Shown one piece after another: positions 18,362 through 48,550 of a DNA stretch of 64,000 bases; position 1 is the first letter of the stretch; each line of letters starts with the position of its first letter. A program made the translations under genes and the position numbers. The stretch is from a virus (Duplodnaviria > Heunggongvirae > Uroviricota > Caudoviricetes), in the IMG/VR virus record IMGVR_UViG_3300006143_000002, one strand, 5' to 3'. Below the pieces are notes generated by a model. That model was not told where the DNA came from. It ran no database searches and was given only the letters and a program-made list of their open reading frames with translations.

Positions 18362-20818
18362 TTATACTCCTCCATTTGCATAATATTCATTTCTTAATGA
18401 AATAATATTATCTTTTTTCCTTAGTTCAACTATCTTACTGATATTTTCTTTACCAATATTAATATTTTCTTTTATATTTTCACAAGTATAACCTGTTTCT
18501 GTTCTAGTTTTTATTTGTTTTTGCATAATTATACTTTCACCATCTTCTGCTAGTTCACATTGTTTTAAATCAGATAATTTTACAAAATCATTATTTATAT
18601 TATCTAATATTTTCATATACTCAACACATTTATCATCATATTTATCTTTAATAAATTTATAAAAATAATTCGCAGTTGCATTATATAGTTTTCTTAATTC
18701 TACATTTTTACCATTCATAGTCATTTCATAAACAGTCCTCATAGACTTCCAAAAAGAATAATAACTAAATTTAAGCTTTGTCATAAATGTTCCACATTCA
18801 ATTACAACGCCTTCTATATCTGTGTCTATTAATTCATTTTGATTTTTATGTTGTTCATAAAATTCAGTTAATTGCCTATATGTATCAAATTTAATATATA
18901 CTTGCTTATAATCTGTATCTTTTAATTTTAACGATTTAGCAATTTGCATTAATCCATCATAAGGTATCTTCTCAAAATCTACTTTATTATGAATTATATC
19001 TAATAAGACAACTCTACTTTCTTTTTCATCTATAATATGAGGGTCATTTTCTAAATCTATAACTTCAAATGTCATTGACATATTATTATTTTTTAGAAAT
19101 ACTGTAATATTGTCTATTTGTTCTTCTGTAAATGTATTATAAAATAAATTTTTAAAATACATTGCATATTCTCCACAATTTGAAGATTTACTATGAAATT
19201 GTAAATTATCATTATAATAACTTAAAATGCCCAAGAAACCATTATATTTTTTATAAGCAACAACTTCTTCATCTGTATCAAATAATCTCTTTAAATTAAA
19301 TAATCTACATGATTCTTGTTCGTTTATATTAAAGAACTTTTCATAACCTCTTGCTACTATTTTATTATTTACAGTATCTATAAATAAACCTCTTGCTTTA
19401 ACAGTTTCCTTATCCCATTTATCTTTTTCAAATGCTTTACGTGTAAAGTTGAATGATGATATTCCACCTTCTAATACACTTTCTCTTATATTTCTATTAT
19501 TTCTTAATCTATCTACAATATTTTCTATATTTATTTCTTGTGTATTTACTATTTGTTGGTGTTCTTCCCAAGATGTATCCCTATATAAGTCATTTTTTAT
19601 ACTATGGAAAAATATACCCTTATTTGTTAATTCTGCTACTTTTAGATTTCCACCAAATTCAACACCATCCTCTAATGAGAATGATAAAGGTAAATCTCTC
19701 ATTGGTTTTTCTGGTGCAATATATCTATGTCCGTGTATTTGTATTATTGATTTATTTTTCATGTTTTCTGTATATGATTCGTCAATAGGGAATTTGAAAG
19801 CTCCAACACCATGTATCATTTGACTTGTTGATATTAAAGGTAAATTATTTGGGATAGTATTCAATCCCCCATGACATACAAAATATGTTTGTCCTTTAAA
19901 GTTTATATAAGCCATTTGTCCTAGTTTTCTATAAAACTTTCTCATACTTGATGGGTCTATTGATTTAATTTGTGGTAATGTAAAGTTCATAAATTCTTTA
20001 CTTTTAATCTCGCTATCCAGTTCATTTGCCCAATACCAAATAAATCTTTCATGATTTCCTTCTAATAAAAGTACATTACTTTTTTGACATATACTAATAA
20101 TAAATTCTAATACTTCCTTATTTTGTAGTCCTCTATCTAAATAGTCCCCTACAAATATATAAGCATCTTCATCATTTAAAAATTGATGTAAATTTTGAGA
20201 ATTTACTTCTTCTTGATATTCTGTATATGTTTGTTTTAGTATATATTCTTTTAATGGGTTAAAACAACCATGAATATCTCCTATAATATGTATTCTTTTA
20301 TACTCATTAAAATCAAATTCTTTATTACTAAATGTTTCCCAAAACTTATCTCTAGGAATATCTACCCAACCACTTGTCTTTTCTTGAGTTTCAAATCTTG
20401 CATACATTTTATCAATTACTTCATCAGGAACTCTTTTATAGGCATTTCTTTGATGATTTCTTTCTATACATACTTCTTTTGGTACATCTGTAAATGATAC
20501 TACATACTTTCTATATCTATATGATTCACATAATGAATTATATCTACTAAAATCTGTTGAACGGCTATGTGTTGCATCTATTATAGTAAAATCTCCATTT
20601 TTCATTCTTTTCTCTAATAATTCATATAATAATGACCATATATAAGATTCATTTTCTTGTGATATAGTTGCATCTGTTCCATTTTCTGTCAATATTGGTG
20701 CAGATGCCATCATTCTTATATTATCTGGGCTTATTGTATATTGCTCTAAACCATTTTCTTTTATCCAGGTTGATTTACCTGAACCTGGGCATCCCCTTAA
20801 AACCACTAAATTTCTCAT
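18362..20818 (-). CDS. pnkp: trifunctional polynucleotide kinase / metallophosphatase / RNA ligase (bacterial Pnkp-like)
   Basis: P-loop GCPGSGKST. Calcineurin-like motifs GDIHG, GDYLDRG, GNHE. C-terminal covalent nucleotidyltransferase motifs I KYNG, III TFEVID, IV EGVVIE, V KLK in order. Start set at MRNLVV after RBS GAGAGGTAGG. The ORF-track N-terminal extension overlaps the promoter. Confidence 0.75.
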   Translation of the reverse strand: MRNLVVLRGCPGSGKSTWIKENGLEQYTISPDNIRMMASAPILTENGTDATISQENESYIWSLLYELLEKRMKNGDFTIIDATHSRSTDFSRYNSLCESYRYRKYVVSFTDVPKEVCIERNHQRNAYKRVPDEVIDKMYARFETQEKTSGWVDIPRDKFWETFSNKEFDFNEYKRIHIIGDIHGCFNPLKEYILKQTYTEYQEEVNSQNLHQFLNDEDAYIFVGDYLDRGLQNKEVLEFIISICQKSNVLLLEGNHERFIWYWANELDSEIKSKEFMNFTLPQIKSIDPSSMRKFYRKLGQMAYINFKGQTYFVCHGGLNTIPNNLPLISTSQMIHGVGAFKFPIDESYTENMKNKSIIQIHGHRYIAPEKPMRDLPLSFSLEDGVEFGGNLKVAELTNKGIFFHSIKNDLYRDTSWEEHQQIVNTQEINIENIVDRLRNNRNIRESVLEGGISSFNFTRKAFEKDKWDKETVKARGLFIDTVNNKIVARGYEKFFNINEQESCRLFNLKRLFDTDEEVVAYKKYNGFLGILSYYNDNLQFHSKSSNCGEYAMYFKNLFYNTFTEEQIDNITVFLKNNNMSMTFEVIDLENDPHIIDEKESRVVLLDIIHNKVDFEKIPYDGLMQIAKSLKLKDTDYKQVYIKFDTYRQLTEFYEQHKNQNELIDTDIEGVVIECGTFMTKLKFSYYSFWKSMRTVYEMTMNGKNVELRKLYNATANYFYKFIKDKYDDKCVEYMKILDNINNDFVKLSDLKQCELAEDGESIIMQKQIKTRTETGYTCENIKENINIGKENISKIVELRKKDNIISLRNEYYANGGV

Positions 20819-20836
20819 AAAATTTCCTACCTCTCT

Positions 20837-20865
20837 GTTTTTGTTTATTATATAATAAGTTTTAA
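20837..20865 (-). promoter_or_regulatory. consensus promoter (extended family member), drives pnkp
   Basis: Reverse complement reads CTTGACATATTTTAAAACTTATTATATAAT. Confidence 0.6.
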
Positions 20866-20881
20866 AATATGTCAAGTATTT

Positions 20882-21112: not shown

Positions 21113-21114
21113 CT

Positions 21115-22803: not shown

Positions 22804-22978
22804 ATCTACACAACTCCTTTAAATATGTATCATAATCTATGCTTTTCAATCTATTCTTAATAAACTTATATCTATCTCTTTGTATATAATCTCCACAATT
22901 TCCATCCTTACTTTCAGTTACATTACAAAATGGAAATTTACTACAAGTTCTGCACTTATTACATATAAAATTACTCAT
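22796..22978 (-). CDS. small Cys-rich protein
   Basis: [13 protein letters not shown]. Confidence 0.3.
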
Positions 22979-23876
22979 AGCTACCTCCTAATCTTGATGG
23001 GTGTCTTAATTTCCTAAATGCCCTTGCTTCTATTTGTCTTATTCTTTCTTTTGTTACACCTAGTTGCCTTCCTGTATCTTCTAATGTATATGGTGCATTA
23101 TTTAAACTTGTTCCATCTTTTATTTTTGGTATATCTTTATAATATATATCTGGTAATAGACCATACCTGTACTTTAATACAAAAGATTCTCTTGTTGTAA
23201 GTGTATTATTCAAATGATATATTAACTTTTGTACTATTCTAGAATTATTTTCTATTTTATCTATCTCATTAAGTATAAATTCATCATTTATTATATCTAC
23301 AGTAGTATTACTATATGTATCATCTATATATTCTTCTATTTTACTTGAATTTTGATTATGTATTATTTTTGCATGGTCAAACAAGTGCATTGTTCTTGCA
23401 AAACCTTTATTTCTATTATCTAACATTCTCATTTGATATTCAATTTCCAAATCTTTATCTTCCATAAAATAATCATTAGGATACTTTTTTCTATAATCTG
23501 CTATTGCTTCCTTTATATATTCTTCGTCTGTTTTACTTTCATATACTTTATGAAAGTAACCTCTATCTGTAATTTTATTTCTATAATATAAGTTAGATGC
23601 TAAACAATTAGAAGAATCACCATCTTTAAAATCAACAACATCTAAACCATCTTTATTATCTACAAAATATTCTGCAACTAAATTAGCAAGGTCTATTAAT
23701 CTAAAACCTTTTCGAGTACCTGTTCTCAAATATACTTTTGTTCTAGAACCTCCCGATGTAGATAAAGTATAATGTTTTAAATATTTACCTGTTGATTTTT
23801 CTCTAACTATACTCATATTAGATACTTCATAATCTTGGTTGTTTTCGATTGTTTTCCACTCTATCATAAACCTCAC
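22971..23876 (-). CDS. sigma-70 region-4 domain protein with an N-terminal NUMOD4-like motif
   Basis: C-terminus [15 protein letters not shown]...[29 protein letters not shown] is a near-textbook sigma region 4.1/4.2. N-terminus [20 protein letters not shown] resembles the NUMOD4 motif of homing endonucleases. Confidence 0.55.
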
Positions 23877-23902
23877 CTTCTTATATTATAATCTTATATA
23901 TT

Positions 23903-23977
23903 TGGCAGGAGTGCTAGGATTTGAACCCAGACAAACAGTTTTGGAGACTGCTGTGCTACCATTAACACTACACTCCT
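23903..23977 (-). tRNA. tRNA-Trp (anticodon CCA)
   Basis: 75-nt cloverleaf folded by hand: 7-bp acceptor AGGAGTG/CACTCCT, D-stem GTGT/GCAC, anticodon stem GCAGT/ACTGT with loop CTCCAAA, T-arm CTGGG-TTCAAAT-CCTAG, discriminator G and encoded CCA. Confidence 0.65.
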
Positions 23978-23986
23978 ATATAGGGT

Positions 23987-24062
23987 TGGAGCTTCATATT
24001 GGATTCGAACCAATGGTCACAGATTTGCAATCTGTTGCCTTAACCAACTTGGCTAATGAAGC
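23987..24062 (-). tRNA. tRNA-Cys (anticodon GCA)
   Basis: 76 nt: acceptor GCTTCAT/ATGAAGC, anticodon stem ACAGA/TCTGT with loop TTGCAAA, T-arm ATTGG-TTCGAAT-CCAAT, encoded CCA. Confidence 0.65.
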
Positions 24063-24086
24063 ATATAATTTGGTGGGTTAAGCCCA

Positions 24087-24875
24087 CTACTCTTCTTCTG
24101 GTACTAATAAAAATTTATCTATAAAATCTCTATCTTTATTAAATAATGGTATTTCTGTATCACAGAATATTCCCTCATCTTTTCTATATACACAAAATCC
24201 TCTTTTCCATTTAGTTTCTAAATTATTCCAATTTATATTGTACTTTTCCATTAACATATCTTGTATATCACTTGTATTTTTCTTATCAAGTTGTTTTTGA
24301 CTAAACTTTGATTGTCCTAGTGATTGTATTGAGTTTCTTGATGCATCTTGTTGCCTCCATAAAAAGTAATTACATACATCTTCCTTTGGTATATTAAATG
24401 CTCTTGCATCAAACATTGCTATACCCATTTTCTTTTGCCATTTATTAAATAAGTCTAAATTCTCTGGTTCATCTGAATTTGCATAACCAGACCAAGCTAA
24501 TACCTTTTGTGTTACAAACTTATTAAAATACATTGTTGCTGCTGATGCTATTACTGAACATACCTTTTGTAATCTATAATCAAAATAACTATCAGTAGTT
24601 AATTTATCCCAGTCTGTTAATAATAAACTTATCTCATCAGACTGTGTATATGCTAACTTGCACCCTTGAACACTCAATATAAGATTTTCACAAACATATT
24701 GCATTACTTGTGATAGTATTTCATCAAATGGTTTATCTAAACCTCTTGTAAATGTGTGGAATGCTTTACCATCTATTCTTACTATAACAGGTGTTCTTTT
24801 TGTAAGTTTAACATCTGATACAGATTCATAATCTTTCATTCTATCACTTAATGTTTTTATCTTTGAATTTGACAT
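24087..24875 (-). CDS. thg1: Thg1-like protein (tRNA 3'-5' nucleotidyltransferase, TLP)
   Basis: Collinear matches to the Thg1 family: VIVRIDGKAFHTFT, KPFD, LAYTQSDEISLLL, FDARAFNIPKEDVCNYFLWRQQDASRNSI, KYNINWNNLETKWKRG. Confidence 0.8.
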   Translation of the reverse strand: MSNSKIKTLSDRMKDYESVSDVKLTKRTPVIVRIDGKAFHTFTRGLDKPFDEILSQVMQYVCENLILSVQGCKLAYTQSDEISLLLTDWDKLTTDSYFDYRLQKVCSVIASAATMYFNKFVTQKVLAWSGYANSDEPENLDLFNKWQKKMGIAMFDARAFNIPKEDVCNYFLWRQQDASRNSIQSLGQSKFSQKQLDKKNTSDIQDMLMEKYNINWNNLETKWKRGFCVYRKDEGIFCDTEIPLFNKDRDFIDKFLLVPEEE

Positions 24876-24918
24876 TATATACTCCTCCTTAAAACTATTA
24901 TTTACTTATTATACCTAT

Positions 24919-24947
24919 ATTATACTATAAGTTTTAAAATATGTCAA
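24919..24947 (-). promoter_or_regulatory. consensus promoter (extended family), drives the Thg1-like gene
   Basis: Reverse complement reads CCTTGACATATTTTAAAACTTATAGTATAAT. Confidence 0.6.
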
Positions 24948-24970
24948 GGGTTTTTTCAAAATTTATTAAA

Positions 24971-25021
24971 AAATTTAAGACAGTTGAAATTTATACTTAT
25001 AAACTTATATCAACTGTCTAT
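24971..25021 (-). terminator. hairpin terminator (9-bp stem GACAGTTGA/TCAACTGTC, 22-nt loop)
   Basis: Follows the stop of the nucleotidyltransferase gene, then TTAAATTTTTTAAT, just before the promoter at 24919..24947. Confidence 0.4.
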
Positions 25022-25057
25022 CTAAAATAGTTTCTAGGGAAACCTGATAAAGAAGAA

Positions 25058-25861
25058 CTATATTGTAAAATCATAATTTAAAGCTTTCTCATTTATATCT
25101 ATCAACCATTTATTTATTTTATGATAATCTGGTGTCTTTTGTAATGTACTTTCATCATAGTATTGGTGTATCTCTTTATCTAATCTGTCAAACATATCAA
25201 ATATTTCTTCTAATGTATATTTTCCTGCTCTTATATCTAATAATAATTTTCTCTCTTCTTCTGGTCTGTAAGAACAATAATCATGTGTTAATAATATTTG
25301 TTTTGCACAATATAGTAATCTTATAGCATGATAAGCAAATTTAGTATCATAACCAAATTTTTCAACTAAATCTTGTCTGCCAGTTCCATTTTGCTTCTTT
25401 ATATCTAGTTTATACCTTTGTGACATTGCAAATCCACAAAACTTTTTATATATTTCCTTAGATAAAAATTCTTTTCTTATACTTCTTAACTCTTTTCCAA
25501 AATCATCTATATGAATTATATCTTCATCTCTACAAAATAGTATATCAATATTATTTGGTACACCTTGCATAGCGTCTCTAACAAATTTATTTATATGGCA
25601 TATTACTATATCAATATCTTCTTTTGTATTATGTTCTCCAAAATTTTTACCACCAGACTTATTATATTCATTTATAGATTTTAATCCTAAATAATATTCT
25701 TTTGGTGGAATACATACACCCTTATAATCAGTATCAGATGTTTCTACATTTGTTCCATATATAACTGAACCTGCTTTAGTTAATAATATTGTTCTGTCTT
25801 CCAACCACATCATATTATCTGGTAGAACATGTTCTATATCTTTAAAACTAACTTTTGCCAT
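25058..25861 (-). CDS. Pol-beta-superfamily nucleotidyltransferase (RlaP / PF10127-like, RNA-repair-associated type)
   Basis: GSVIYGTNVETSDTDYKGV matches the hG[GS]...SDxD nucleotidyltransferase signature. 267 aa. Adjacent to the Thg1-like gene. Confidence 0.5.
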   Translation of the reverse strand: MAKVSFKDIEHVLPDNMMWLEDRTILLTKAGSVIYGTNVETSDTDYKGVCIPPKEYYLGLKSINEYNKSGGKNFGEHNTKEDIDIVICHINKFVRDAMQGVPNNIDILFCRDEDIIHIDDFGKELRSIRKEFLSKEIYKKFCGFAMSQRYKLDIKKQNGTGRQDLVEKFGYDTKFAYHAIRLLYCAKQILLTHDYCSYRPEEERKLLLDIRAGKYTLEEIFDMFDRLDKEIHQYYDESTLQKTPDYHKINKWLIDINEKALNYDFTI

Positions 25862-25872
25862 TTATATCACCT

Positions 25873-26679
25873 CTATTTACTTATATTGAATAAAGCTGAA
25901 GTATTCTCACCCATCATAGTAGTAGGGAATTGTCCATTCCATTTTTCAATCATTTTTTGTTTAATTTCTAATTCTTTTAATTGTAATGTCTTATCTGTTA
26001 TTTGATTATTTTGTAGTTCCATTACTTTTGCATCTTTTTCTGCAATACTTATTTCCTTTTCATTTTGAATTTTTTGTTTTTCTAATTCTGCTTGTGCAGT
26101 TACTACCTCTTGTTGTTTAACTGCTTTTGCTTCTATTGCTGCGTTAAAAGCATCACTAAAATCTATATTTGTTGTATTAAATTCTGTTATAGTAATTCCT
26201 CTACTATCTATTTTATTTGTTAATGATTCTCTAATCATTGAAGATACTTCTGCTCTTTTTGTTATTAACTCTTCTGCTGTATATTGTGCCATTACACTCT
26301 TAACACTCTCTAATATAGCAGGATTTATAACTATATTTTCAAAGTCTGTACCAACCTCTCTATATAATTTATTTGCTGTGTCTTTTCTTACATTATAATT
26401 TAATGCTATTGTTACTGATACTGTTTGTAAATCTTTGGTGCTACTTTCAGATGTAGCATCTATTTTCTTTGTTTTGCAATCTACTAATACAATTTTTTCT
26501 ATAAATGGTATTTTACCATTTAGTCCTTCTTGTAATACATCGTTCTGTACTTTCCCAAATTGGGTCTTTACACCAACACATCCTGTTGGAATTGTTTTAA
26601 ATGAATTAAATAATACTATTACTGCAACTATTAAAATTATACCTAATACAATCCATTTAATTGTCTTTCTGTTTTCCAT
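25873..26679 (-). CDS. SPFH / Band-7 (prohibitin/HflK-like) membrane protein
   Basis: N-terminal TM helix, then GCVGVKTQFGKVQNDVLQEGLNGKIPFIEKI, the start of an SPFH domain, and a C-terminal coiled-coil. Confidence 0.6.
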   Translation of the reverse strand: MENRKTIKWIVLGIILIVAVIVLFNSFKTIPTGCVGVKTQFGKVQNDVLQEGLNGKIPFIEKIVLVDCKTKKIDATSESSTKDLQTVSVTIALNYNVRKDTANKLYREVGTDFENIVINPAILESVKSVMAQYTAEELITKRAEVSSMIRESLTNKIDSRGITITEFNTTNIDFSDAFNAAIEAKAVKQQEVVTAQAELEKQKIQNEKEISIAEKDAKVMELQNNQITDKTLQLKELEIKQKMIEKWNGQFPTTMMGENTSALFNISK

Positions 26680-31694: not shown

Positions 31695-32565
31695 ACTCCT
31701 TATTAAATATTCCTTTTTTTATATGATGTCTTATGTGCATAGCCAATTTCATACTCTTACCAAAATTTGGATTAGATTTACCTTTCATAGAACCATCTCT
31801 AATACCAGATTTAAGCTCTGCTTTATATGTATTCCACTTTTCTGATTTTATCATGCCATTTTTAGTAGATATAGATGTTTTTTCTCTTTCCAGTACATTA
31901 CTAAATCTTTCTTTCTGTGCATTTGATAAATTTTGTTTCATACTATCTGTAAAATGTTTACCATACATCGGATTTTTATCTCCTGATAAATCAGATTTTT
32001 TATGCCTTCCCTCCTTGTATGCCAATTTTAAAGATATACTTCTTTTATTTCTTTCACTTTCTGTTTGTATTCTTCCTTTATTATACTTACCCATATCTTT
32101 ACTCTTCAATGTTTCTGATATTCTTTTTCTGGTTTCTTCACTGTGATAATATCCATATAACTCTATTTTTCTTTTCATAGATTCTTTTAACTTATTTCTT
32201 GTTTCTTGTGGTATTTTTCTTTCTTTTGCACTTAAAGACATTTTTTCTTTTGTTGATAGAGTATGTTCATCTTTTGAACCTTTTCCACCATGTTGAATAT
32301 TATAACAATATTCATCTTCTAGAACTTCTTTGGTTATGATTTCATTTTCAAATTTCAAAGCTTCATCATGACTTTCAAAAAATTTTATGATTTCTCTACT
32401 AAAACTTTCTTTCCCATACTTTCTAACTGCATTTAAAAAATGATACCCAGAACCAATATAACCATCATTTATGTTATTTGTACTATGAACACCATAGTAA
32501 TAATAAGGTGTTCCAATCCTTCTTGTGATATAAACAAAATGATACTTTTTCATATAATATTTCAC
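31672..32565 (-). CDS. GIY-YIG homing-endonuclease-like protein
   Basis: N-terminus YHFVYITRRIGTPYYYYGVHST...GYIGSG has GIY-x10-YIG spacing. K/S-rich C-terminus. Lies directly upstream of ligA. Confidence 0.5.
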   Translation of the reverse strand: MKYYMKKYHFVYITRRIGTPYYYYGVHSTNNINDGYIGSGYHFLNAVRKYGKESFSREIIKFFESHDEALKFENEIITKEVLEDEYCYNIQHGGKGSKDEHTLSTKEKMSLSAKERKIPQETRNKLKESMKRKIELYGYYHSEETRKRISETLKSKDMGKYNKGRIQTESERNKRSISLKLAYKEGRHKKSDLSGDKNPMYGKHFTDSMKQNLSNAQKERFSNVLEREKTSISTKNGMIKSEKWNTYKAELKSGIRDGSMKGKSNPNFGKSMKLAMHIRHHIKKGIFNKECDYCVIR

Positions 32566-34767: not shown

Positions 34768-34859
34768 TGGCGACATAGCTAGGATTTGAACCTAGGAACC
34801 CATTTCTGGATTGCCAGTTTTCAAGACTGGTGCATTAAACCAAACTCTGCCACTATGCC
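34768..34859 (-). tRNA. tRNA-Ser (anticodon TGA), type II
   Basis: 92 nt: acceptor GGCATAG/CTATGTC, 3-bp D-stem with long loop, anticodon stem CCAGT/ACTGG with loop CTTGAAA, long variable arm, T-arm CTAGG-TTCAAAT-CCTAG, encoded CCA. Confidence 0.6.
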
Positions 34860-34872
34860 CTATTTTTATTTA

Positions 34873-34944
34873 CAGCCATTGTTGGATTCGAACCAACCTC
34901 TCCTTACATTAGTAAAGTAATTTTTCCTACTAAACTAAATGACT
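34873..34944 (-). tRNA. tRNA-like gene, non-canonical (good acceptor and T-arm, aberrant D/anticodon region)
   Basis: Acceptor AGTCATT/AATGGCT, T-arm GTTGG-TTCGAAT-CCAAC. The central region folds as CTTTAC-TAAT-GTAAGG rather than a 7-nt anticodon loop. Confidence 0.3.
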
Positions 34945-35032
34945 ATATTAAAAAGATGCTTGATTTCTGCAGCTCTCAGCATCTTTTTGCCTAATCTCTA
35001 TATAGTGAATTCTGCCTATATATTTTAGACTT

Positions 35033-35103
35033 GCCTTTGAAATGGATTCGAACCATTGACTCCCTGTCGCATACAGGGGATTTTCCCACTAAACTATCAA
35101 AGG
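35033..35103 (-). tRNA. tRNA-like gene, anticodon loop TATGCGA (possible TGC/Ala, with A at position 33)
   Basis: Acceptor CCTTTGA/TCAAAGG, anticodon stem CCCTG/CAGGG, T-arm AATGG-TTCGAAT-CCATT. The D-arm is irregular. Confidence 0.35.
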
Positions 35104-35197
35104 GTATAATGTAAAGTAGGAGTAAATTATATTGACGTCAAATATAAATTTTATATCTAATGCGAGATACTATATTAACCTACTTTATTTTTGCATA

Positions 35198-35259
35198 TCA
35201 CCTGTTATGGATTCGAACCACTTTCTCCTATACATATATTTTCATACATGCAGCAGGTG
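35198..35259 (-). tRNA. tRNA-like fragment (T-arm and acceptor only, ~62 nt)
   Basis: TTCGAAT T-loop with a 6-bp acceptor. Too short for a D-arm and anticodon arm, so probably a pseudo-tRNA. Confidence 0.2.
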
Positions 35260-35264
35260 TTATT

Positions 35265-35339
35265 TGGTCGCAGGGGTTGGATTTGAACCAACATCGTCCG
35301 AAATATGGGCTCAGCTATGCTATATTACACCACCCTGCT
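35265..35339 (-). tRNA. tRNA-like gene, possible CAT anticodon, non-canonical
   Basis: Acceptor (A)GCAGGG/CCCTGC(G) with a 1:72 mismatch, T-arm GTTGG-TTCAAAT-CCAAC, encoded CCA. Anticodon stem CTGAG/TTCGG has wobble pairs and loop CCCATAT. D-arm is poor. Confidence 0.3.
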
Positions 35340-35343
35340 ATAT

Positions 35344-35419
35344 TGGGTGCGAGGGCTGGATTCGAACCAGCGAACTCTAGCTTATGAGGCTAGTGAGATG
35401 CCAACTTCTCCACCTCGCA
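35344..35419 (-). tRNA. tRNA-Met/Ile2 (anticodon CAT)
   Basis: 76-nt canonical cloverleaf: acceptor TGCGAGG/CCTCGCA, D-stem GAGA/TCTC, anticodon stem CTAGC/GCTAG with loop CTCATAA, T-arm GCTGG-TTCGAAT-CCAGC, discriminator C and CCA. Confidence 0.65.
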
Positions 35420-35454
35420 GTATTAAATTATTAGCATTACCTAATTAAAGGCTG

Positions 35455-35526
35455 GTCGAGTACATTGGATTCAAACCAATTCCATCATCCACCTGTTGGA
35501 TGCCGTGCACCATACACCATACTCGA
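35455..35526 (-). tRNA. tRNA-like gene, anticodon loop AACAGGT (non-canonical, no U33)
   Basis: Perfect 7-bp acceptor TCGAGTA/TACTCGA, D-stem GTGT/GCAC, anticodon stem CATCC/GGATG, T-arm ATTGG-TTTGAAT-CCAAT with one extra nucleotide before the acceptor. Confidence 0.35.
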
Positions 35527-35700
35527 TATATATATATACAAATGATTTAAGGTATATCATCAACCACACATCGAGCATTATTTATTTTTCATAGACTAAA
35601 CTATGATTAATCTATTTCATCTCATGCTCTATTTTGTTCACCTTTGAGAACCCTATGAAATAGATTATATATTACTTATACATAATATATAACATCTTTA

Positions 35701-35793
35701 TGGCGATAAGGGAGGGATTCGAACCCTCGATACATAATTAAATGTATGTCTCCTTAGCAGAGAGATGGTTTAAACCTACTCACCCACCTTACC
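35701..35793 (-). tRNA. tRNA-Ser (anticodon GCT), type II
   Basis: 93 nt: acceptor GGTAAGG/CCTTATC, anticodon stem TCTCT/GGAGA with loop CTGCTAA, long variable-arm hairpin ATACAT...ATGTAT, T-arm GAGGG-TTCGAAT-CCCTC, discriminator G and CCA. Confidence 0.6.
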
Positions 35794-36007
35794 ATTATAT
35801 TTTTAAATTGGTGAGATTCATAAACAACTAACTTTAGTCCCAGTAGAACGGATATTACCTTCATATTGCAATTCTCTTGTGTATGGTCATAGCAATACAT
35901 ATCTACAAAGTTTTAGTCCAGATATTCCATACATACTAATATCTAGTTTTATTTTAGTTGATTTGTGTACAACTCTGTTTAGTACCACATACACTTTGGT
36001 ACTTTTT

Positions 36008-36078
36008 CAGGGTATTGCAGGACTCGAACCTTAACTCTCTGCAATAGCAGATTGTTTTACCATTTAAACTATCAACCC
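36008..36078 (-). tRNA. degenerate tRNA-like element (perfect D-arm, weak acceptor and T-stem)
   Basis: GGGTTGA-TA-GTTT-AAATGGTA-AAAC D-arm and T-loop TTCGAGT. Acceptor pairs only 4 bp. Anticodon loop has 6 nt. Confidence 0.25.
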
Positions 36079-36313
36079 ATATATCTGTGAGAGCCTAATC
36101 ACTCTCTAGGGAATTGAAACCCTCCCAACTTGCAAAATTGGTACTTGTCACCCTATTATATTTAATCCAGTGTTTGTGTCCTACAAGATTACTCTTGTTA
36201 TTAAACGATACATAAGATTTTTGAGCTGGTTTTCTTATGCAGTAGAACCATCACTCTACATTTCAAACAGTCAGCTTTGTTCACTAGAGGCTACAACTTT
36301 CTCCGTCATGATT

Positions 36314-36342
36314 ATATTACCACAAGTTTAAATATATGTCAA
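36314..36342 (-). promoter_or_regulatory. promoter TTGACA-N17-TAATAT driving the tRNA array
   Basis: Reverse complement reads GCTTGACATATATTTAAACTTGTGGTAATAT. First tRNA-like gene lies ~230 nt downstream. Confidence 0.55.
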
Positions 36343-36358
36343 GCATTTTTTAAATTTT

Positions 36359-37903
36359 TTATTTAATTTTTTTATAAATTCTACTAAATGCCTCATATTC
36401 ACTTAAACATACTGGCTTAAAATTATTAACATCTACACCAACATTATATGAATTTTTAATCTTTTTTATAATATGGCTATTGCTATGAATATGCCCATAT
36501 AGATGAGTGCTACCATATTCTTTTTGTTTCCATGAAGATATTGGAAAATGAAATAATATGTATTTCTTATTATTGACTGTTATTTCTTTATAATCAACTA
36601 TCTCCTCAAATAAAGACTGGTCAAAATCTTTTCCAATACATATATTATCATGATTTCCTAATATAAGTATCTTTCTACCTCGTAATCTCTTAACAATTTC
36701 ATTAGTTTCTTTACTATTTCTAAATGATAAATCACCTAATATGAACACTAAATCATCATCATGTTTTACTGTACTATTCCATCTTCTTATAAGTTCTTCA
36801 TCATGAATTTTTATATATTCCTTATTAACCTCCATTTTATATTTATCCCAAAGGTCATCTGGTATATTATAAATTTCTTCATTTGTCAAACCTTCATCTT
36901 TTAATTTATTTACTATTGCTTGATGTTGGGTTATTCCACATAACTCCCATCTTTTTGGTTCAAAGTCTAATATATTTTCATGTCCAAAATGTAAGTCAGA
37001 TGTAAAAAATATTTTATCTGAGGTTGGTAACGATAGACCGCTTTTTCTTCTCCATTTATTTCTTTTTGGTGTAAAAATATTTCTTAAATATTTTTCAAAT
37101 ATTTTAACAGAGATTTTACTTAAAAATTCTTTAACCATGTCTTCACTATTTACTTCATTAAAAAACATATTTCTATGTGACTTTAATTGATTTATACTAT
37201 CATTTGCCAAATCTCTTGCTTCTTCTAATGAATATTTGCTTAATTTAGCATTAGTTAAAACTTCAATATTATCTTCCATATAATTATGGGAATTCATAGA
37301 TTTTTTAAAATCAAATGTTTCTATATATTTTTCTGCAAATAAATTTAATCTTAGTATATGATGTAATTGTTTTCCATCATATCCATATTTTTCTATCTTA
37401 TCTCTCAACCCTTCATAAGGATGTTCTAATGCTTCTAATTTATTTAAAGCCATACCATAAGTACAAACTATTAATTTTACTGGATTTGCACTAGAAATCA
37501 TATCAGCATTATCTAATATTTCTAACATATCATTTTTAAATAATGGGTTTAATATTCTAAATTCTGTATGTAATATTTCAAGATATTTTATATTTTGTTT
37601 TCTAAATAATTCTGTTATTAACCTAATATCTTTAACATCTATATGTTCATTATTATCTAATATTATTGTTTCAGATATATATTCATCCTTATTTATTAAG
37701 TTTTCAAAGGTAGGTAATACAATAGCTACTGTATCTATATCAGATTTATACTCATCTGTATATAAATCTAAATTATAATTTTGACTTCCTTGTAAGGCTA
37801 CCATTAAAAACTCATATTGTGGTCTCAATCTTTTTAATTCATTTACATGGTACTTTATACCTTTAAATATATTATTTTTTCTTTGTTTATCTATATCTGC
37901 CAT
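36359..37903 (-). CDS. Pol-beta nucleotidyltransferase (RlaP-like) fused to a calcineurin-like metallophosphoesterase
   Basis: N-terminal ALQGSQNYNLDLYTDEYKSDIDTVAIV nucleotidyltransferase signature. C-terminal metallophosphoesterase motifs SDLHFGHEN, ILGDLSF, GNHDN, GHIH. Lies directly upstream of the tRNA-array promoter. Confidence 0.55.
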   Translation of the reverse strand: MADIDKQRKNNIFKGIKYHVNELKRLRPQYEFLMVALQGSQNYNLDLYTDEYKSDIDTVAIVLPTFENLINKDEYISETIILDNNEHIDVKDIRLITELFRKQNIKYLEILHTEFRILNPLFKNDMLEILDNADMISSANPVKLIVCTYGMALNKLEALEHPYEGLRDKIEKYGYDGKQLHHILRLNLFAEKYIETFDFKKSMNSHNYMEDNIEVLTNAKLSKYSLEEARDLANDSINQLKSHRNMFFNEVNSEDMVKEFLSKISVKIFEKYLRNIFTPKRNKWRRKSGLSLPTSDKIFFTSDLHFGHENILDFEPKRWELCGITQHQAIVNKLKDEGLTNEEIYNIPDDLWDKYKMEVNKEYIKIHDEELIRRWNSTVKHDDDLVFILGDLSFRNSKETNEIVKRLRGRKILILGNHDNICIGKDFDQSLFEEIVDYKEITVNNKKYILFHFPISSWKQKEYGSTHLYGHIHSNSHIIKKIKNSYNVGVDVNNFKPVCLSEYEAFSRIYKKIK

Positions 37904-37905
37904 TT

Positions 37906-38496
37906 TTAATCACCTTCTTGCTTAAATAATGTATCTATTAATTCATAATAATAATCAGATGCATCTTTCATTCTTCTAAAAGAATTCATTATAATTCGTT
38001 GTTCTTCTAATGAAATTAAAGGAATAGTAATATTTGATATATCTGCTACAGTAAGTCTTTTTTGTTTTTTATTCTTAGACAATCTATGTATTTTCTCAAA
38101 CATCTTTGTAGATGTAAGTACTTGATATACATAATCCTCATAAACTATATCTCTATTTACTCTTACAATTATATTTGAACTATCATATACATCGTTTAAA
38201 AAATAAGGTTTTATAAAAGGGTTTGATTTAACAATAAGTGTACAGTATCTATTTGGAAATACTGGAAATACTATGTCTGTTGCTTTCACCATACAATCTT
38301 TACGCTTCTTACTAAAGTTATAAGTTTTAACAGGTGTATCTATTTTTCCACCTATAAATGTTGTAAATAAATCATTATATGAAATCAATCGTGCCTCTGT
38401 TCCAGTATCTGATTCCAATATCTGCTGTCCTTTAAATACATCTGCAATATCACCTAATCTTACATGTGAAATAGTATCAAAGTCTATTTTAATCAC
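37906..38496 (-). CDS. half-size type I R-M specificity-subunit (HsdS)-like protein with a single TRD
   Basis: N-terminal VRLGDIADVFKGQ (TRD start), and C-terminal LISLEEQRIIMNSF resembling the conserved PLPPLEEQ helix of HsdS. 196 aa. Confidence 0.45.
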   Translation of the reverse strand: MIKIDFDTISHVRLGDIADVFKGQQILESDTGTEARLISYNDLFTTFIGGKIDTPVKTYNFSKKRKDCMVKATDIVFPVFPNRYCTLIVKSNPFIKPYFLNDVYDSSNIIVRVNRDIVYEDYVYQVLTSTKMFEKIHRLSKNKKQKRLTVADISNITIPLISLEEQRIIMNSFRRMKDASDYYYELIDTLFKQEGD

Positions 38497-38820: not shown

Positions 38821-39498
38821 CTATATATTTATTTTAACATCTTGTGCTTTTAATTTATCTAATGCCTCTTGAAAATAATCCATAGTTAAACCTGTTTCTG
38901 TATCTACATGTATTAAATTATCTCCATACTTATATAAATCAAATATATCATCATCTATAATTAGAAAAGGTATATTTTTAAATGTAAACATTCCACTTCC
39001 TTTAAAATGATAATCTTCTATTTCATCTTCTCTCCAAGATATATAATTTTCTTTTGGTATTCTATTAGTCCTACCACCTATATAGGCTTTAACTTTATTT
39101 ATCTTAAAAACTGTATTCCATTCTGTTGGTGTCAATTCATATCTTCTTGTAGTTGTTAATATAATTGTATATGGTGCAACATCATATAACTTATTTAAAA
39201 ATTCAACTGCTTCCTTTTGAAAACACCATTGTTGCATAAAATTTCTATATTCAAAATCTTTATTTTCATCTTCTTTATGAACTAAAGCATTATGGATTTT
39301 TATTATATAATTACTACCTGCAGTTACACCATCCATATCTAAATATAGTATAAACTTATATTTTTCATCTGTTTCTATTTTATATGGCTCTAATGATTTC
39401 ACTAATTCATCTGGTGTATATCTACTTAATAATTTCTTAAAATCTTTCTGTAATTCTTCATTTGATAAATCCTTAAATTTCATTTTACCAACCTTCAC
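38821..39498 (-). CDS. HAD-superfamily phosphatase
   Basis: Motif I ILYLDMDGVTA (hhhhDxDGV), motif II IILTTT, late DDD. Confidence 0.45.
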   Translation of the reverse strand: MKVGKMKFKDLSNEELQKDFKKLLSRYTPDELVKSLEPYKIETDEKYKFILYLDMDGVTAGSNYIIKIHNALVHKEDENKDFEYRNFMQQWCFQKEAVEFLNKLYDVAPYTIILTTTRRYELTPTEWNTVFKINKVKAYIGGRTNRIPKENYISWREDEIEDYHFKGSGMFTFKNIPFLIIDDDIFDLYKYGDNLIHVDTETGLTMDYFQEALDKLKAQDVKINI

Positions 39499-47803: not shown

Positions 47804-48550
47804 TTAAAATACTTTTTTAAAATCACTTCCATCATATAATAAATATGACTTATCCCCATATTTAGAACCACCTCTATATGTAGAATGTGTATCTGTAAAG
47901 AATAATCTAAAACCTTCTTCTTTTCTTTCTGTTATTGTTTCTACAGGAGAATGCCCTACTATTTGATTTGGTATTAACATTTTCTCTCTTAATGCAGATT
48001 GAAACAACTCTCTTTTATCTGTCCATACAGGAGAACTACATAAATCATTACCACCTCTCATGTATGAACAATATTTATAATATACTAAATTATTTAATTT
48101 ATCTTCTTGTAACTTATCTATAACTGGTTTCCAATCTCCATAAGTATCCAACACTTGACATATATAATCATTTGTAAATCCTGCGTGAGAACATACATAA
48201 GTAGTATTTTCATCTATTTCAAATTCTGTATATAAATCAAATAAATTTATATTATTTTCTAATAATCCATTTACTTCCTCTTCTCTTTCATACTGATGTC
48301 CTGAACAAGGAAATTGTAAATAACTCAATTCATGATTTCCAATACAAAAAGTATATTTATCTGGATTAGATTTCTTTAATTCTATAACCTTATTTAATGT
48401 TTGTATAGATTCAACATTAGTTGTATTCCAATCATCTACATAATCTCCTAAAAAGATTACTCTGTCTAAATTATATTCTTTATCTAATCTTCTTACATCA
48501 TCAAATATATATTGATGATTATGTACATCCCCTACAAATAAAACCTTCAT
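47804..48550 (-). CDS. calcineurin-like metallophosphoesterase
   Basis: MKVLFVGDVHNH, FLGDYVDDW, IGNHE. Confidence 0.55.
   Translation of the reverse strand: MKVLFVGDVHNHQYIFDDVRRLDKEYNLDRVIFLGDYVDDWNTTNVESIQTLNKVIELKKSNPDKYTFCIGNHELSYLQFPCSGHQYEREEEVNGLLENNINLFDLYTEFEIDENTTYVCSHAGFTNDYICQVLDTYGDWKPVIDKLQEDKLNNLVYYKYCSYMRGGNDLCSSPVWTDKRELFQSALREKMLIPNQIVGHSPVETITERKEEGFRLFFTDTHSTYRGGSKYGDKSYLLYDGSDFKKVF

What the first reader, a model, noticed from the sequence alone, without database searches (positions are those of the whole stretch)
36359..37903. Nucleotidyltransferase-metallophosphoesterase fusion flanking the tRNA array
An N-terminal Pol-beta nucleotidyltransferase signature (GSQNYNL...SDIDTVAI) is fused to a complete calcineurin-like phosphoesterase (DLHFGHE, GDLSF, GNHD, GHIH). 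This is a plausible single-polypeptide unit for 3'-end healing (removal of 2',3'-cyclic or 3'-phosphate) followed by nucleotide re-addition. A standalone nucleotidyltransferase (25058..25861) and two further metallophosphoesterases (within Pnkp, and 47804..48550) are also present. Three MPE domains plus two nucleotidyltransferases is unusual redundancy for a phage.
Basis: partly seen in the sequence, partly recalled or inferred. Interest (0 to 1): 0.6.

Follow-up and report, generated by a model that had tools for sequence, protein, structure and literature searches.

The report
RlaP nucleotidyltransferase–phosphoesterase fusion for RNA repair
A jumbo gut phage encodes one protein that joins an RNA-repair nucleotide-adding enzyme (RlaP type) to a metal-dependent phosphoesterase, most likely to clean the blocked 3' end of a cut tRNA and then add back lost nucleotides; the fusion is real and recurrent, and is a new arrangement of known repair modules rather than a new kind of system.

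Summary
The ORF at 36359..37903 (minus strand) encodes 514 aa and every quoted motif is present. The identical protein occurs on 21 independently assembled contigs. At least 99 diverged full-length homologues (32-76% identity, all in N-to-C order) keep both catalytic sets, so this is not a frameshift or assembly artefact.

The N-half (residues 1-282) is a divergent RlaP-family Pol-beta nucleotidyltransferase with the RlaP helical domain. The C-half (residues 291-514) is a complete metallophosphoesterase of the uncharacterised AQ_1665/COG4186/PHROG-547 subfamily.

None of 50,697 GenBank phage records, and no BFVD viral structure, carries the fusion. Where the two modules are unfused, they lie next to each other in either order. 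They also lie next to polynucleotide kinase, Pnkp, Rnl1-type ligase, Thg1-like genes and tRNA arrays.

Purified RlaP adds 1-2 NMP only to RNA 3'-OH ends and cannot use 3'-phosphate ends. The best reading is therefore coupled 3'-end healing followed by nucleotide re-addition, before kinase and ligase sealing. This function is inferred, not shown.

The three MPEs belong to unrelated subfamilies, and one sits in the tail module.

Side finding: conserved tRNA-like genes with 6-nt anticodon loops lie in the adjacent array.

The parts
36359..37903 (-). Fusion gene (514 aa plus stop codon): RlaP-like nucleotidyltransferase fused to a metallophosphoesterase.
   Evidence: ORF. PHROG 388 + 547. 99 full-length homologues. 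AF2 model pLDDT 93.8. Identical protein on 21 contigs.
37058..37903 (-). N-terminal RlaP-like module, residues 1-282. It comprises a Pol-beta NTase core (G39-S40, D55xD57, D89/D92) and a helical domain carrying the K172-x-G174-x-D176-x-K178...H182...R185 motif.
   Evidence: Conservation. Alignment to Pfam-verified RlaPs. The N-half profile hits only the canonical RlaP among the 128 window ORFs, E 2.9e-11. 14/74 homologues hit PF10127. Fold resembles KNTase/HalB-type NTases and phage 'nucleotidyltransferases' in BFVD.
37034..37057 (-). Inter-domain linker, residues 283-290. It is low-confidence or disordered in the model.
   Evidence: pLDDT <50 at residues 283-286. The region is poorly conserved and gap-rich in the family alignment.
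36362..37033 (-). C-terminal metallophosphoesterase module, residues 291-514. All metal and catalytic motifs are invariant: D303xH305(xxH308), G390-D391, G416-N417-H418-D419, H452, G470-H471xH473. A variable helical insert (about residues 316-378) lies between motifs I and II.
36314..36342 (-). Promoter-like site (TTGACA-17-TG-TAATAT) directly after the fusion's stop codon, at the head of the tRNA region.
   Evidence: Consensus scan, 10/12 matches with an extended -10 TG. This is a consensus match only, not evidence of function.
34768..36079 (-). Downstream tRNA array. It holds Ser(GCU), Leu(CAG), two Met(CAU), Ala(UGC) and Ser(UGA), plus two tRNA-like genes with 6-nt anticodon loops (34872-34945 and 36010-36079). 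These are candidate substrates or cofactors (inferred).
   Evidence: ARAGORN and Rfam. Conservation in relatives.
38821..39498 (-). HAD_SAK_2 phosphatase ('Swiss-army-knife' RNA-repair HAD), syntenic with the fusion in all close relatives. It is a possible partner for removing the phosphomonoester (inferred).
   Evidence: Pfam PF18143, 8.9e-15. Synteny in L005, L171-174, L178, L179, L180.
18362..20875 (-). Pnkp-like protein of 837 aa: polynucleotide kinase (AAA_33) + Metallophos + Rnl1-type RNA ligase. It is the inferred source of 5'-phosphorylation and sealing.
   Evidence: Pfam.
24087..26679 (-). Thg1-like 3'-5' polymerase (24087-24875), stand-alone canonical RlaP (25058-25861) and Band-7/SPFH (25873-26679). 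These are further RNA-repair modules in the same strand block.
   Evidence: Pfam. The same block is syntenic in L179 and L180.

Best explanation
The gene encodes a bifunctional RNA 3'-end repair enzyme of a ~200-220 kb low-GC gut phage, probably one infecting Clostridia. Host ribotoxins such as anticodon nucleases and other metal-independent RNases cut tRNA and leave a 2',3'-cyclic phosphate or 3'-phosphate end. Some of them also remove one or two nucleotides.

Step 1 (inferred): the C-terminal binuclear metallophosphoesterase hydrolyses that blocking phosphate to a 3'-OH. It may do this alone or together with the syntenic HAD_SAK_2 phosphatase.

Step 2 (inferred from RlaP biochemistry): the N-terminal RlaP-type nucleotidyltransferase adds one or two NMPs to the freshly made 3'-OH, replacing the lost nucleotides. 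RlaP can only use a 3'-OH end.

Step 3 (inferred from gene content): the Pnkp-like kinase-ligase at 18362..20875 phosphorylates the 5'-OH and seals the break. Thg1-like, stand-alone RlaP and Band-7 modules serve related repairs.

Fusing the two activities couples de-blocking to extension on one polypeptide.

Shown here: the identity, integrity and conservation of both catalytic domains; the recurrence of the fusion; and the genomic linkage of both modules to RNA-repair genes and tRNA arrays. Not shown: any enzymatic activity, the substrate, or the site of action.
For: (1) Both catalytic sets are invariant or near-invariant across 99 full-length homologues at 32-76% identity. All 110 fused proteins are in N-to-C order.

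(2) The N-half is RlaP-like. It aligns with Pfam-verified RlaPs through GS, SDxD and the helical-domain KxGxDxK..H..R motif. Its profile hits only the window's canonical RlaP (2.9e-11). 14/74 homologues hit PF10127.

(3) Purified RlaPs add 1-2 NMP to RNA 3'-OH. 3'-phosphorylated RNA is not a substrate, DNA is not a substrate, and Mn2+ is preferred (PMC12776372). A 3'-phosphoesterase is therefore the logical upstream partner.

(4) Rosetta-stone linkage. The unfused N-type NTase and C-type MPE are adjacent in either order: L003/L004 and L018 (N then C); L015, L019, L092 and L026 (C then N). L021 has NTase -> kinase-HD -> MPE. L113 has the MPE directly followed by a canonical RlaP. In 9 of 21 non-redundant NTase lineages a C-type MPE lies within 10 kb. 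In the tree, the fused C-domains' nearest relatives are exactly those NTase-neighbouring MPEs.

(5) Each module on its own keeps RNA-repair company. The MPE lies next to an Rnl1-type ligase (Pfam-confirmed) and large tRNA arrays, or directly after a polynucleotide kinase. The NTase lies next to kinase, kinase-HD, full Pnkp or Thg1. The same holds in cultured phages: Vibrio phiKT1024, E. coli FFH2, Listeria LP-083-2, Phass-1 and Lysinibacillus LC76P1.

(6) The window itself carries Pnkp-like, Thg1-like, RlaP, Band-7 and HAD_SAK_2 genes plus tRNA arrays on the same strand. This arrangement is syntenic in relatives at 57-60% identity.

(7) An intein is inserted in the invariant KYGYDGKQ motif of one homologue. 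This marks the motif as functionally critical.
Against: - No activity has been measured for any member of this fusion or of the AQ_1665/COG4186/PHROG-547 MPE subfamily. Its nearest solved structure is a protein of unknown function, and no literature was found.
- The window protein itself is below Pfam thresholds for both families.
- The residue that aligns with canonical RlaP's third Asp (D89) is D in only 68/99 homologues and N in 20/99. D92 is the conserved one, so the active-site geometry may differ from canonical RlaP.
- Context counts are inflated by related loci. The 41 MPE-only loci collapse to 5 lineages.
- In Staphylococcus Kayvirus, and in many bacterial chromosomes, the stand-alone MPE has no recognisable RNA-repair neighbours.
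- pTM of 0.68 gives no confident relative orientation of the two active sites, so channelling is speculation.
- The phage already has a Pnkp MPE and a HAD_SAK_2 phosphatase. The need for another 3'-healing activity is not self-evident.
Confidence: 0.6

Rival explanations
1. The chemistry is the same but the target differs. The enzyme would work on tRNA 3' acceptor ends, or in maturation of phage-encoded tRNAs and tRNA-like RNAs. It would remove a 3' or cyclic phosphate left by a processing or toxin RNase and rebuild the discriminator/CCA region, rather than repairing anticodon-loop breaks.
For: The gene directly precedes the tRNA array. tRNA-Ala and the two short-loop tRNA-like genes lack an encoded CCA. 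N-type NTases are frequently linked to Thg1-like enzymes, which repair the opposite (5') strand of the acceptor stem: 7/21 lineages, and two genes away in L001/L011. Phass-1 has the NTase beside a tRNA array.
Against: Most tRNA genes in the array already encode CCA. RlaP in vitro prefers the 3' end of the 5' half of a cleaved tRNA mimic over the natural tRNA 3' end (PMC12776372). There is no similarity to CCA-adding enzymes.
Confidence: 0.15
2. The protein is a DNA-end processing enzyme, analogous to the LigD phosphoesterase plus polymerase. The MPE would clean 3'-blocked DNA ends or act as a nuclease, the NTase would add nucleotides, and the nearby NAD-dependent DNA ligase would seal.
For: An NAD-dependent ligase lies 5 kb away in the same block and recurs in some NTase loci: L003, L018, L025. 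There is sub-threshold similarity of the C-half to the ligase-associated nuclease PdeM (E 0.016). Structural neighbours include Mre11/SbcD and P. putida nuclease MPE.
Against: RlaP does not use DNA acceptors (PMC12776372). The linkages to polynucleotide kinase, Rnl1-type RNA ligase, Thg1 and tRNA arrays are far stronger than to DNA ligase, which appears in 3/39 loci. The PdeM hit is far below its cutoff of 150 bits.
Confidence: 0.07
3. The protein is an anti-defence enzyme acting on nucleotide second messengers. The MPE would degrade cyclic or linear oligonucleotide signals (CBASS, Pycsar, type III CRISPR, Thoeris-like), and the NTase would modify or mimic them.
For: The N-domain fold resembles the Hailong HalB oligonucleotide-synthesising NTase. 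MPE relatives include cyclic-nucleotide and Ap4A phosphodiesterases. A variant genome carries an Apyc1-like anti-Pycsar gene in the same region (L172). Calcineurin-like PDEs have been proposed as counter-signal enzymes in jumbo phages (PMC7824862).
Against: There is no PADLOC match. The RlaP-specific helical-domain motif is present. The link to ligase, kinase, Thg1 and tRNA genes is consistent, and none of those has a role in signal degradation.
Confidence: 0.05
4. The fusion is an artefact (frameshift or mis-assembly joining two genes), or one domain is a decayed, inactive remnant.
For: None was found. The only hint is that unfused, adjacent versions of the two genes exist in other phages.
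Against: The identical 514-aa ORF is on 21 contigs from independent samples. At least 99 homologous fused proteins exist down to 32% identity. All catalytic residues of both domains are conserved. A confident two-domain model has a short linker.
Confidence: 0.01

Closest known systems
[quoted passage not shown]
   Same: It shares the Pol-beta NTase core (GS, DxD, a further Asp) followed by a helical domain with the shared K-x-G-x-D-x-K...H...R motif. It shares residence in RNA-repair neighbourhoods with RNA ligases, kinases and phosphatases. Its expected activity is addition of 1-2 NMP to RNA 3'-OH.
   Different: It is a divergent clade: the window protein is below the PF10127 threshold. The conserved third Asp is shifted (D92 rather than D89). 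It is covalently fused to a metallophosphoesterase. The window also carries a canonical stand-alone RlaP (25058..25861), so the two are not redundant copies.
AQ_1665 / COG4186 / PHROG 547 'phosphoesterase' (PDB 1xm7; widespread stand-alone phage phosphoesterases)
   Different: No member has a known function. Here it is fused to RlaP and carries a variable helical insert of about 50 aa between motifs I and II.
Clostridium thermocellum Pnkp (kinase - MPE phosphatase - ligase) and the Pnkp/Hen1 RNA repair system
   Same: A calcineurin-type MPE is used for RNA 3'-end healing (2',3'-cyclic phosphodiesterase and 3'-phosphomonoesterase; established knowledge, Shuman laboratory) within a multi-domain repair polypeptide. 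The window has such a protein at 18362..20875.
E. coli class II CCA-adding enzyme with its HD domain (2',3'-cyclic phosphodiesterase / phosphatase; Yakunin et al. 2004, from memory)
   Same: This is the closest functional analogue. It is a Pol-beta superfamily NTase fused to a phosphohydrolase that can de-block tRNA 3' ends before nucleotide addition.
   Different: The NTase family is unrelated (PF01743, no hit). The hydrolase is HD rather than MPE. It is specific for the CCA end.
Bacterial LigD (3'-phosphoesterase + polymerase + ligase) in NHEJ
   Same: It has the same logic of 3'-end cleaning plus nucleotide addition before ligation.
   Different: The folds are unrelated, it acts on DNA ends, and it includes the ligase in the same polypeptide.

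Membership tests
RlaP (PF10127) | Pol-beta NTase signature: hG[GS], Dx[DE], and a third acidic residue on the following strand. | tested here: met
   G39-S40 in 97/99, D55 and D57 in 97/99, D92 in 98/99. D89, which aligns with the canonical RlaP Asp, is D in 68/99 and N in 20/99.
RlaP (PF10127) | Significant match to the Pfam PF10127 model. | tested here: inconclusive
   The window protein has no hit at E<=1. 14/74 aligned homologues do hit (best 9.7e-8; P0081 scores 24.1 bits against a cutoff of 23). The family N-half profile hits the window's PF10127 protein at E 2.9e-11. Membership therefore rests on transitive, profile-level homology.
RlaP (PF10127) | C-terminal helical domain packed against the NTase domain, forming the substrate cleft. 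| tested here: met
   Helices at residues 120-277 in the AF2 model. The K172/G174/D176/K178/H182/R185 motif is invariant across fusion and canonical RlaPs. BLASTP of residues 147-232 against the window RlaP gives E 1e-7. No solved RlaP structure was available for direct comparison.
RlaP (PF10127) | Genomic association with RNA ligases and end-healing enzymes. | tested here: met
   The window has a Pnkp-like ligase, Thg1, HAD_SAK_2 and tRNAs. Relatives lie adjacent to full Pnkp (L013, L020) or to kinase/kinase-HD (L014, L025, L027, L049, L021).
RlaP (PF10127) | Adds 1-2 NMP to RNA 3'-OH, is Mn2+-dependent, and has no activity on 3'-P ends or DNA. | not testable with these tools
   This is a biochemical property reported for PfRlaP/PaRlaP only (PMC12776372).
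Calcineurin-like metallophosphoesterase superfamily (PF00149/PF12850) | Motifs I-V: DxH, GD, GNH[DE], H, GHxH. | tested here: met
   D303, H305, G390, D391, G416, N417, H418, H452, H471 and H473 are invariant in 74-99 homologues. 46/74 hit Metallophos_2 and 20/74 hit Metallophos. The fold matches. The window sequence itself is below Pfam reporting.
AQ_1665 / COG4186 / PHROG 547 subfamily | Profile-level and structural similarity over the whole small MPE domain, including DxHxxHxN in motif I. | tested here: met
CthPnkp-type RNA 3'-phosphatase (lambda-phosphatase-like MPE) | Sequence or profile similarity to the Pnkp phosphatase domain. | tested here: not met
CCA-adding enzyme / poly(A) polymerase (PF01743) | Match to the PolyA_pol head domain and tRNA-NT body. 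| tested here: not met
   No Pfam or NCBIfam hit. The structural neighbours are KNTase/HalB-type, not class I/II CCA enzymes.
Known anti-phage defence system components (PADLOC-DB 2.0) | Match to any defence-system protein model. | tested here: not met
   0 families at E<=0.01.

The most novel reading that the evidence does not exclude
The fusion may not be merely a generic repair enzyme. It could be the dedicated enzyme of a pathway that acts on the phage's own conserved tRNA-like RNAs with 6-nt anticodon loops (CUAAUG and CUAUUG/CUGUUG classes), which lie in the array just downstream. These RNAs look like tRNAs one nucleotide short in the anticodon loop. That is the same state as a tRNA whose wobble base has been excised by an RloC-type 'smart' ribotoxin. 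Two roles are conceivable. They could be decoys or cofactors, comparable to the predicted Band-7-associated tRNA. More radically, they could be latent tRNAs that become functional only after cleavage by a host anticodon nuclease, 3' healing by the MPE, single-nucleotide insertion by the RlaP domain and religation. That would be a damage-activated, insertion-edited tRNA.
Probability: 0.05. Interest if true: 0.85.

Novelty: new variant of a known kind. Interest (0 to 1): 0.45.

Why it matters
RlaP was characterised only recently, and its proposed role is restoring nucleotides removed by 'smart' ribotoxins before ligation. That role requires someone to remove the 3' phosphate first. This fusion, together with the recurrent adjacency of the unfused genes in either order, names that partner.

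By the Rosetta-stone argument it also assigns a testable RNA 3'-end-healing role to a very common but uncharacterised phage 'phosphoesterase' (PHROG 547/COG4186). That family is present in more than a thousand sequenced phages, including rV5-like, Listeria P100-like, Staphylococcus K-like and Vibrio phages.

It offers a compact single-protein reagent for testing coupled de-blocking and extension of broken tRNA. It also adds to the picture of how jumbo phages counter the growing list of tRNA-cleaving defences.

It does not reveal a new principle. It fits the known modular 'syntax' of RNA-repair systems.

Tried and rejected
- Pfam and NCBIfam on the window protein gave only noise-level hits (GatD_N, PdeM at 0.016). 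They were not used as evidence.
- Megablast of 15 kb around the gene against GenBank phages found no relative.
- The AFDB50 fold library was unavailable.
- Burroughs & Aravind 2016 (NAR 44:8525), the paper that defined RlaP, is not held. I could not check whether it already lists an RlaP-calcineurin architecture. The novelty call is limited by this.
- Literature searches for PF10127, COG4186 and fusion keywords returned nothing on this architecture or on the MPE subfamily.
- Raw context counts in IMG/VR (28/41 MPE loci with an Rnl1-type ligase) looked strong. They collapsed to 3/5 lineages after de-replication, so I report the corrected numbers.
- I considered the 47804..48550 MPE as part of the system and rejected it. 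It lies in the tail module beside a gp15-like gene, has only weak NinI-like similarity, and shows no similarity to the C-half.
- I considered a CCA-adding or maturation role and down-weighted it, because most tRNA genes encode their own CCA.
- Pattern scans for the CUAAUG tRNA-like RNA in IMG/VR and JGI metagenome contigs returned zero matches. Those collections evidently lack this phage lineage. The covariation evidence therefore rests on four sequences only.
- An alternative 7-nt-loop register for the CUAAUG class (tRNA-Ser-like, as ARAGORN calls it in L178) was examined by eye. It was rejected because it breaks in L179 and L180, while the 6-nt register holds in all four.
Full report
OBSERVATION. 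An ATG-initiated ORF of 514 codons lies at 36359..37903 on the minus strand. An RBS-like GAAGGTGA sits 7-12 nt upstream, and the stop codon of the preceding gene is 2 nt before the ATG. PHROGs recognises two modules: phrog_388 'nucleotidyltransferase' (residues 28-140, 1.5e-8) and phrog_547 'phosphoesterase' (residues 291-504, 1.7e-44). Pfam and NCBIfam give nothing significant for this sequence. The gene lies about 280 nt upstream of the first member of a same-strand tRNA array.

IS THE FUSION REAL? The identical protein is encoded on 21 contigs from independent samples, 12 of them >=200 kb. The large protein collection holds >=99 full-length homologues of 430-545 aa at 32-76% identity. All 110 proteins that carry both domains have them in N-to-C order. 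AlphaFold2 with a 74-sequence alignment gives a confident model (mean pLDDT 93.8) of two domains joined by a short low-confidence linker at 283-286. pTM is 0.68, so the relative orientation of the domains is not defined. A frameshift or assembly artefact is excluded.

By contrast, none of 50,697 GenBank phage records covers >=80% of the protein. The two halves hit different genes in different phages. No BFVD viral structure spans both domains. In the GTDB species genomes scanned, no single-ORF fusion was resolved. L137 is a possible broken or divergent copy, and the relatives lie mostly on MAG contigs from animal and human guts labelled Clostridia or Bacilli, some probably mis-binned phage. 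Together with 22-26% GC, this suggests a phage of low-GC Firmicutes.

THE N-HALF IS A DIVERGENT RlaP. Across 99 homologues, G39-S40 and D55xD57 are conserved in 97/99 and D92 in 98/99. Fourteen of 74 aligned homologues individually hit Pfam PF10127 (RlaP), best 9.7e-8.

A profile of the N-half, searched against all 128 stop-to-stop ORFs of the window, finds only itself and the canonical RlaP at 25058..25861 (E 2.9e-11). The match lies in the RlaP helical domain. Pairwise BLASTP gives 1e-7 over the same region.

Aligned with three Pfam-verified RlaPs, the invariant columns are G39, S40, S54-D55-x-D57, D89 and the helical-domain motif K172-x-G174-x-D176-x-K178...H182...R185. There is one wrinkle. 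D89, the residue aligned with the canonical third Asp, is D in only 68/99 family members and N in 20/99, whereas D92 is essentially invariant. Which of the two ligates metal cannot be decided here.

The nearest solved folds are KNTase-type NTases (ANT(4'), Hailong HalB) with HEPN-like helical partners. No RlaP structure is in the PDB copy. In one homologue (P0081, 826 aa) a LAGLIDADG-type intein interrupts exactly the KYGY|GKQLHH motif. Such an insertion is typical of functionally critical sites.

Stand-alone members are annotated simply 'phosphoesterase' or COG4186. They occur in >1,300 GenBank phage records, including Vequintavirus, Kayvirus, Pecentumvirus, and Vibrio, Pseudomonas and Stenotrophomonas myoviruses. 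I found no functional literature. The C-half profile does not hit the window's other two MPE domains, so the three are not paralogous copies.

CONTEXT IN THE WINDOW. On the same strand lie the following:
- a Pnkp-type kinase + Metallophos + RNA_lig_T4_1 protein (18362..20875);
- a sigma factor;
- tRNA-Trp and tRNA-Cys;
- a Thg1-like enzyme (24087..24875);
- a canonical RlaP (25058..25861);
- Band-7/SPFH (25873..26679);
- a 948-aa protein with no hits;
- an NAD-dependent ligase;
- a GIY-YIG endonuclease;
- the tRNA array;
- the fusion;
- a half Type I S-subunit-like gene;
- a HAD_SAK_2 phosphatase (38821..39498).

The order HAD_SAK_2 - small ORFs - fusion - tRNA gap - NAD ligase - ~900-aa protein - Band-7 - RlaP - Thg1 is conserved in phages whose fusion is only 57-60% identical (L179, L180). 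This is the repertoire described for RNA-repair systems of jumbo phages (PMC7824862). The MPE at 47804..48550 sits next to a gp15-like tail gene and has only weak NinI-like similarity. I do not count it as RNA repair.

CONTEXT ELSEWHERE (ROSETTA-STONE TEST). I took the 80 best IMG/VR loci, other fetched loci, and the GTDB loci. I located domains by tblastn with window proteins and assigned them to ORFs. Key partners were confirmed with Pfam.

Unfused N-type NTase and C-type MPE genes are adjacent in both orders. N then C occurs in L003/L004, separated by a 65-aa ORF, with the MPE 28% identical to the C-half (E 7e-14), and in L018. C then N occurs in L015, L019, L092 and L026. L021 has NTase -> AAA_33 kinase-HD -> MPE -> Sir2. 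L113 has this MPE type directly followed by a canonical PF10127 RlaP.

Other recurrent pairs are:
- kinase -> MPE (L029, L031, L038, L039, L043/44/52; also E. coli phage FFH2);
- NTase next to kinase or kinase-HD (L014, L025, L027/28, L049; Lysinibacillus phage LC76P1);
- NTase next to full Pnkp (L013, L020);
- MPE -> RNA_lig_T4_1 ligase amid 11-33 tRNA genes (many of L048-L088).

Raw counts overstate independence. After clustering at 60% identity, the 41 MPE-only loci are 5 lineages, with a ligase in 3. The 39 NTase loci are 21 lineages: a C-type MPE lies within 10 kb in 9, a kinase in 9 and Thg1 in 7.

In NJ trees the fused C-domains form essentially one clade. Its nearest unfused relatives are precisely the MPEs encoded beside N-type NTases, and the ligase-adjacent MPEs are the most distant. 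Cultured phages agree in three of four lineages inspected:
- Vibrio phiKT1024 has the MPE three genes from RNA ligase 1, with a tRNA nucleotidyltransferase gene about 4 kb away;
- E. coli FFH2 has RNA ligase | ATPase -> MPE, with a tRNA array 3 kb away;
- Listeria LP-083-2 has RtcB, RNA ligase, HAD and the MPE within 4 kb;
- Staphylococcus SYL shows nothing recognisable.

In bona fide bacterial chromosomes (Proteus, Flavobacterium and others) the stand-alone MPE has no window-type repair neighbours. The subfamily as a whole may therefore be broader than RNA repair.

MECHANISM. Purified Pseudomonas RlaPs add one or two NMPs to RNA 3'-OH ends. They prefer the 3' end of the 5' half of a cleaved-tRNA mimic, do not use DNA, prefer Mn2+, and cannot use 3'-phosphorylated RNA. 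RlaP treatment before ligation restores aminoacylation of a tRNA missing one anticodon-loop nucleotide (PMC12776372).

Ribotoxin cuts leave 2',3'-cyclic or 3'-phosphate ends (established knowledge). An RlaP therefore needs a 3'-phosphoesterase upstream of it. The fusion supplies one on the same chain.

I propose the following sequence:
1. The MPE de-blocks the end, possibly sharing the cyclic-diester and monoester steps with the syntenic HAD_SAK_2.
2. The RlaP domain extends by 1-2 nt.
3. The Pnkp-like kinase and ligase finish the repair.

The domain identities, their integrity and their linkage are shown. Every catalytic step is inferred. Whether the target is the anticodon loop or the acceptor 3' end is open. 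The link to Thg1-like enzymes, and the CCA-less genes in the array, keep the acceptor-end option alive.

RIVALS. A DNA-end role draws on the NAD ligase nearby, PdeM/Mre11-like neighbours and the LigD analogy. It is disfavoured by RlaP's RNA specificity and by the much stronger links to RNA-specific partners. A nucleotide-signal or anti-defence role draws on the HalB-like fold, PDE-like MPE relatives and Apyc1 in a variant genome. It lacks any PADLOC match and does not explain the ligase, kinase, Thg1 and tRNA linkage. An artefact is excluded.

COMPARISON AND NOVELTY. Both modules are known kinds, and RlaP, calcineurin-like phosphatases, HAD_SAK, Thg1 and Band-7 are all documented in phage RNA repair. 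What appears new is the covalent RlaP-MPE architecture. It is absent from cultured-phage records and BFVD, and was not found in the searchable literature. Also new is the functional inference it allows for the PHROG-547 phosphoesterases. I could not read Burroughs & Aravind 2016, which may already list such an architecture. I therefore rate this 'new variant of a known kind', of moderate interest. The closest functional analogue is the E. coli CCA-adding enzyme with its HD phosphohydrolase domain (from memory). The closest system-level analogue is Pnkp.

SIDE FINDING. The array next to the gene contains tRNA-like genes whose anticodon loop has 6 rather than 7 nucleotides: 34872-34945 (loop CUAAUG; Rfam tRNA 41.2 bits) and 36010-36079 (loop CUAUUG; weak, 19.4 bits). 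The CUAAUG class recurs in relatives at 75, 60 and 57% protein identity, with compensatory changes in 8 of 18 cloverleaf pairs. Only four sequences are available, so the statistics are weak. A CUAUUG/CUGUUG class recurs too. Such calls make up 8/51 tRNA calls in fusion-lineage loci against 2/430 in the other fetched loci, but this is confounded with phylogeny. They may be analogues of the predicted Band-7-associated tRNA cofactor, decoys, or substrates. This underlies the low-probability 'novel case'.

Noticed in passing
window 34872-34945 (-) and 36010-36079 (-); L178:12536-12608, L179:13327-13398 and 10005-10089, L180:10749-10823, 10989-11059, 10175-10248: These are tRNA-like genes with 6-nt anticodon loops (CUAAUG; CUAUUG/CUGUUG; CUUAUG), and most lack an encoded CCA. 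The CUAAUG class is conserved across phages at 57-100% protein identity, with compensatory stem changes in 8/18 pairs (four sequences only). Such calls are 8/51 in this phage lineage against 2/430 in the other fetched loci, but this is confounded with phylogeny. They may be decoys, cofactors (compare b7a-tRNA) or substrates of the repair enzymes.
   Followed up: partly
window 37906-38496 (-): This 196-aa protein is a single Type I R-M specificity-subunit half (PF01420 at 5e-5; PADLOC Specificity_I at 2e-11). Its stop codon is 2 nt before the fusion's ATG, so the two are likely co-translated. It is not conserved next to the fusion in other lineages. The pairing is curious because the PrrC and RloC anticodon nucleases are encoded within Type I R-M loci (from memory). 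It could be an anti-restriction or anti-ACNase decoy.
   Followed up: partly
P0081 (826 aa homologue), insertion between query residues 175 and 177: A LAGLIDADG-type intein of about 350 aa (starts CYTADTKFLT..., ends ...VAVQPN|C) is inserted in the invariant KYGYDGKQLHH motif of the RlaP helical domain, with D176 replaced by the +1 Cys.
   Followed up: partly
window 26751-29597 (-): This 948-aa protein has no Pfam, PHROG or PADLOC hit. It is conserved in synteny (816-953 aa) between the NAD-dependent ligase and Band-7/RlaP/Thg1 in L171, L172, L179 and L180. It is an uncharacterised candidate component of the repair block.
   Followed up: no
window 29705-32565 (-); L171:12738-15586: The NAD-dependent ligase ORF (543 aa) starts at position 65 of the adenylation-domain profile. 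A separate 67-aa ORF matching the Nlig-Ia domain lies just upstream, beside a GIY-YIG/NUMOD3 homing endonuclease. The ligase gene looks split or interrupted (an intron or a homing-endonuclease insertion?).
   Followed up: no
window 18362-26679 (-): This block reads Pnkp-like kinase-MPE-Rnl1 ligase, sigma-70-like factor, tRNA-Trp/Cys, Thg1-like, canonical RlaP, Band-7/SPFH. It resembles the Band-7-centred RNA-repair systems predicted by Burroughs & Aravind, here with two tRNA genes in the place where a 'b7a-tRNA' would be expected.
   Followed up: partly
L172:1320-2030 (variant genome of the same phage): A gene for an Apyc1-like metallo-beta-lactamase (anti-Pycsar) replaces the HTH/HNH segment seen upstream of HAD_SAK_2 in the window and L171. 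This looks like an anti-defence hot-spot beside the repair genes.
   Followed up: no
It is probably unrelated to RNA repair.
   Followed up: partly
L021:12244-13017; L176 (E. coli phage FFH2) 1427-2188: A Sir2-family gene recurs next to the NTase-kinase-MPE operon (L021) and near the RNA ligase/ATPase/MPE cluster of phage FFH2.
   Followed up: no
window 35265-35339 (-): An extra tRNA-Met(CAU)-like gene is missed by default ARAGORN but found by Rfam (33.9 bits) and by ARAGORN at -ps90. Conversely, the ARAGORN tRNA-Leu(CAG) at 35453-35525 was not reported by Rfam at E<=0.1.
   Followed up: partly
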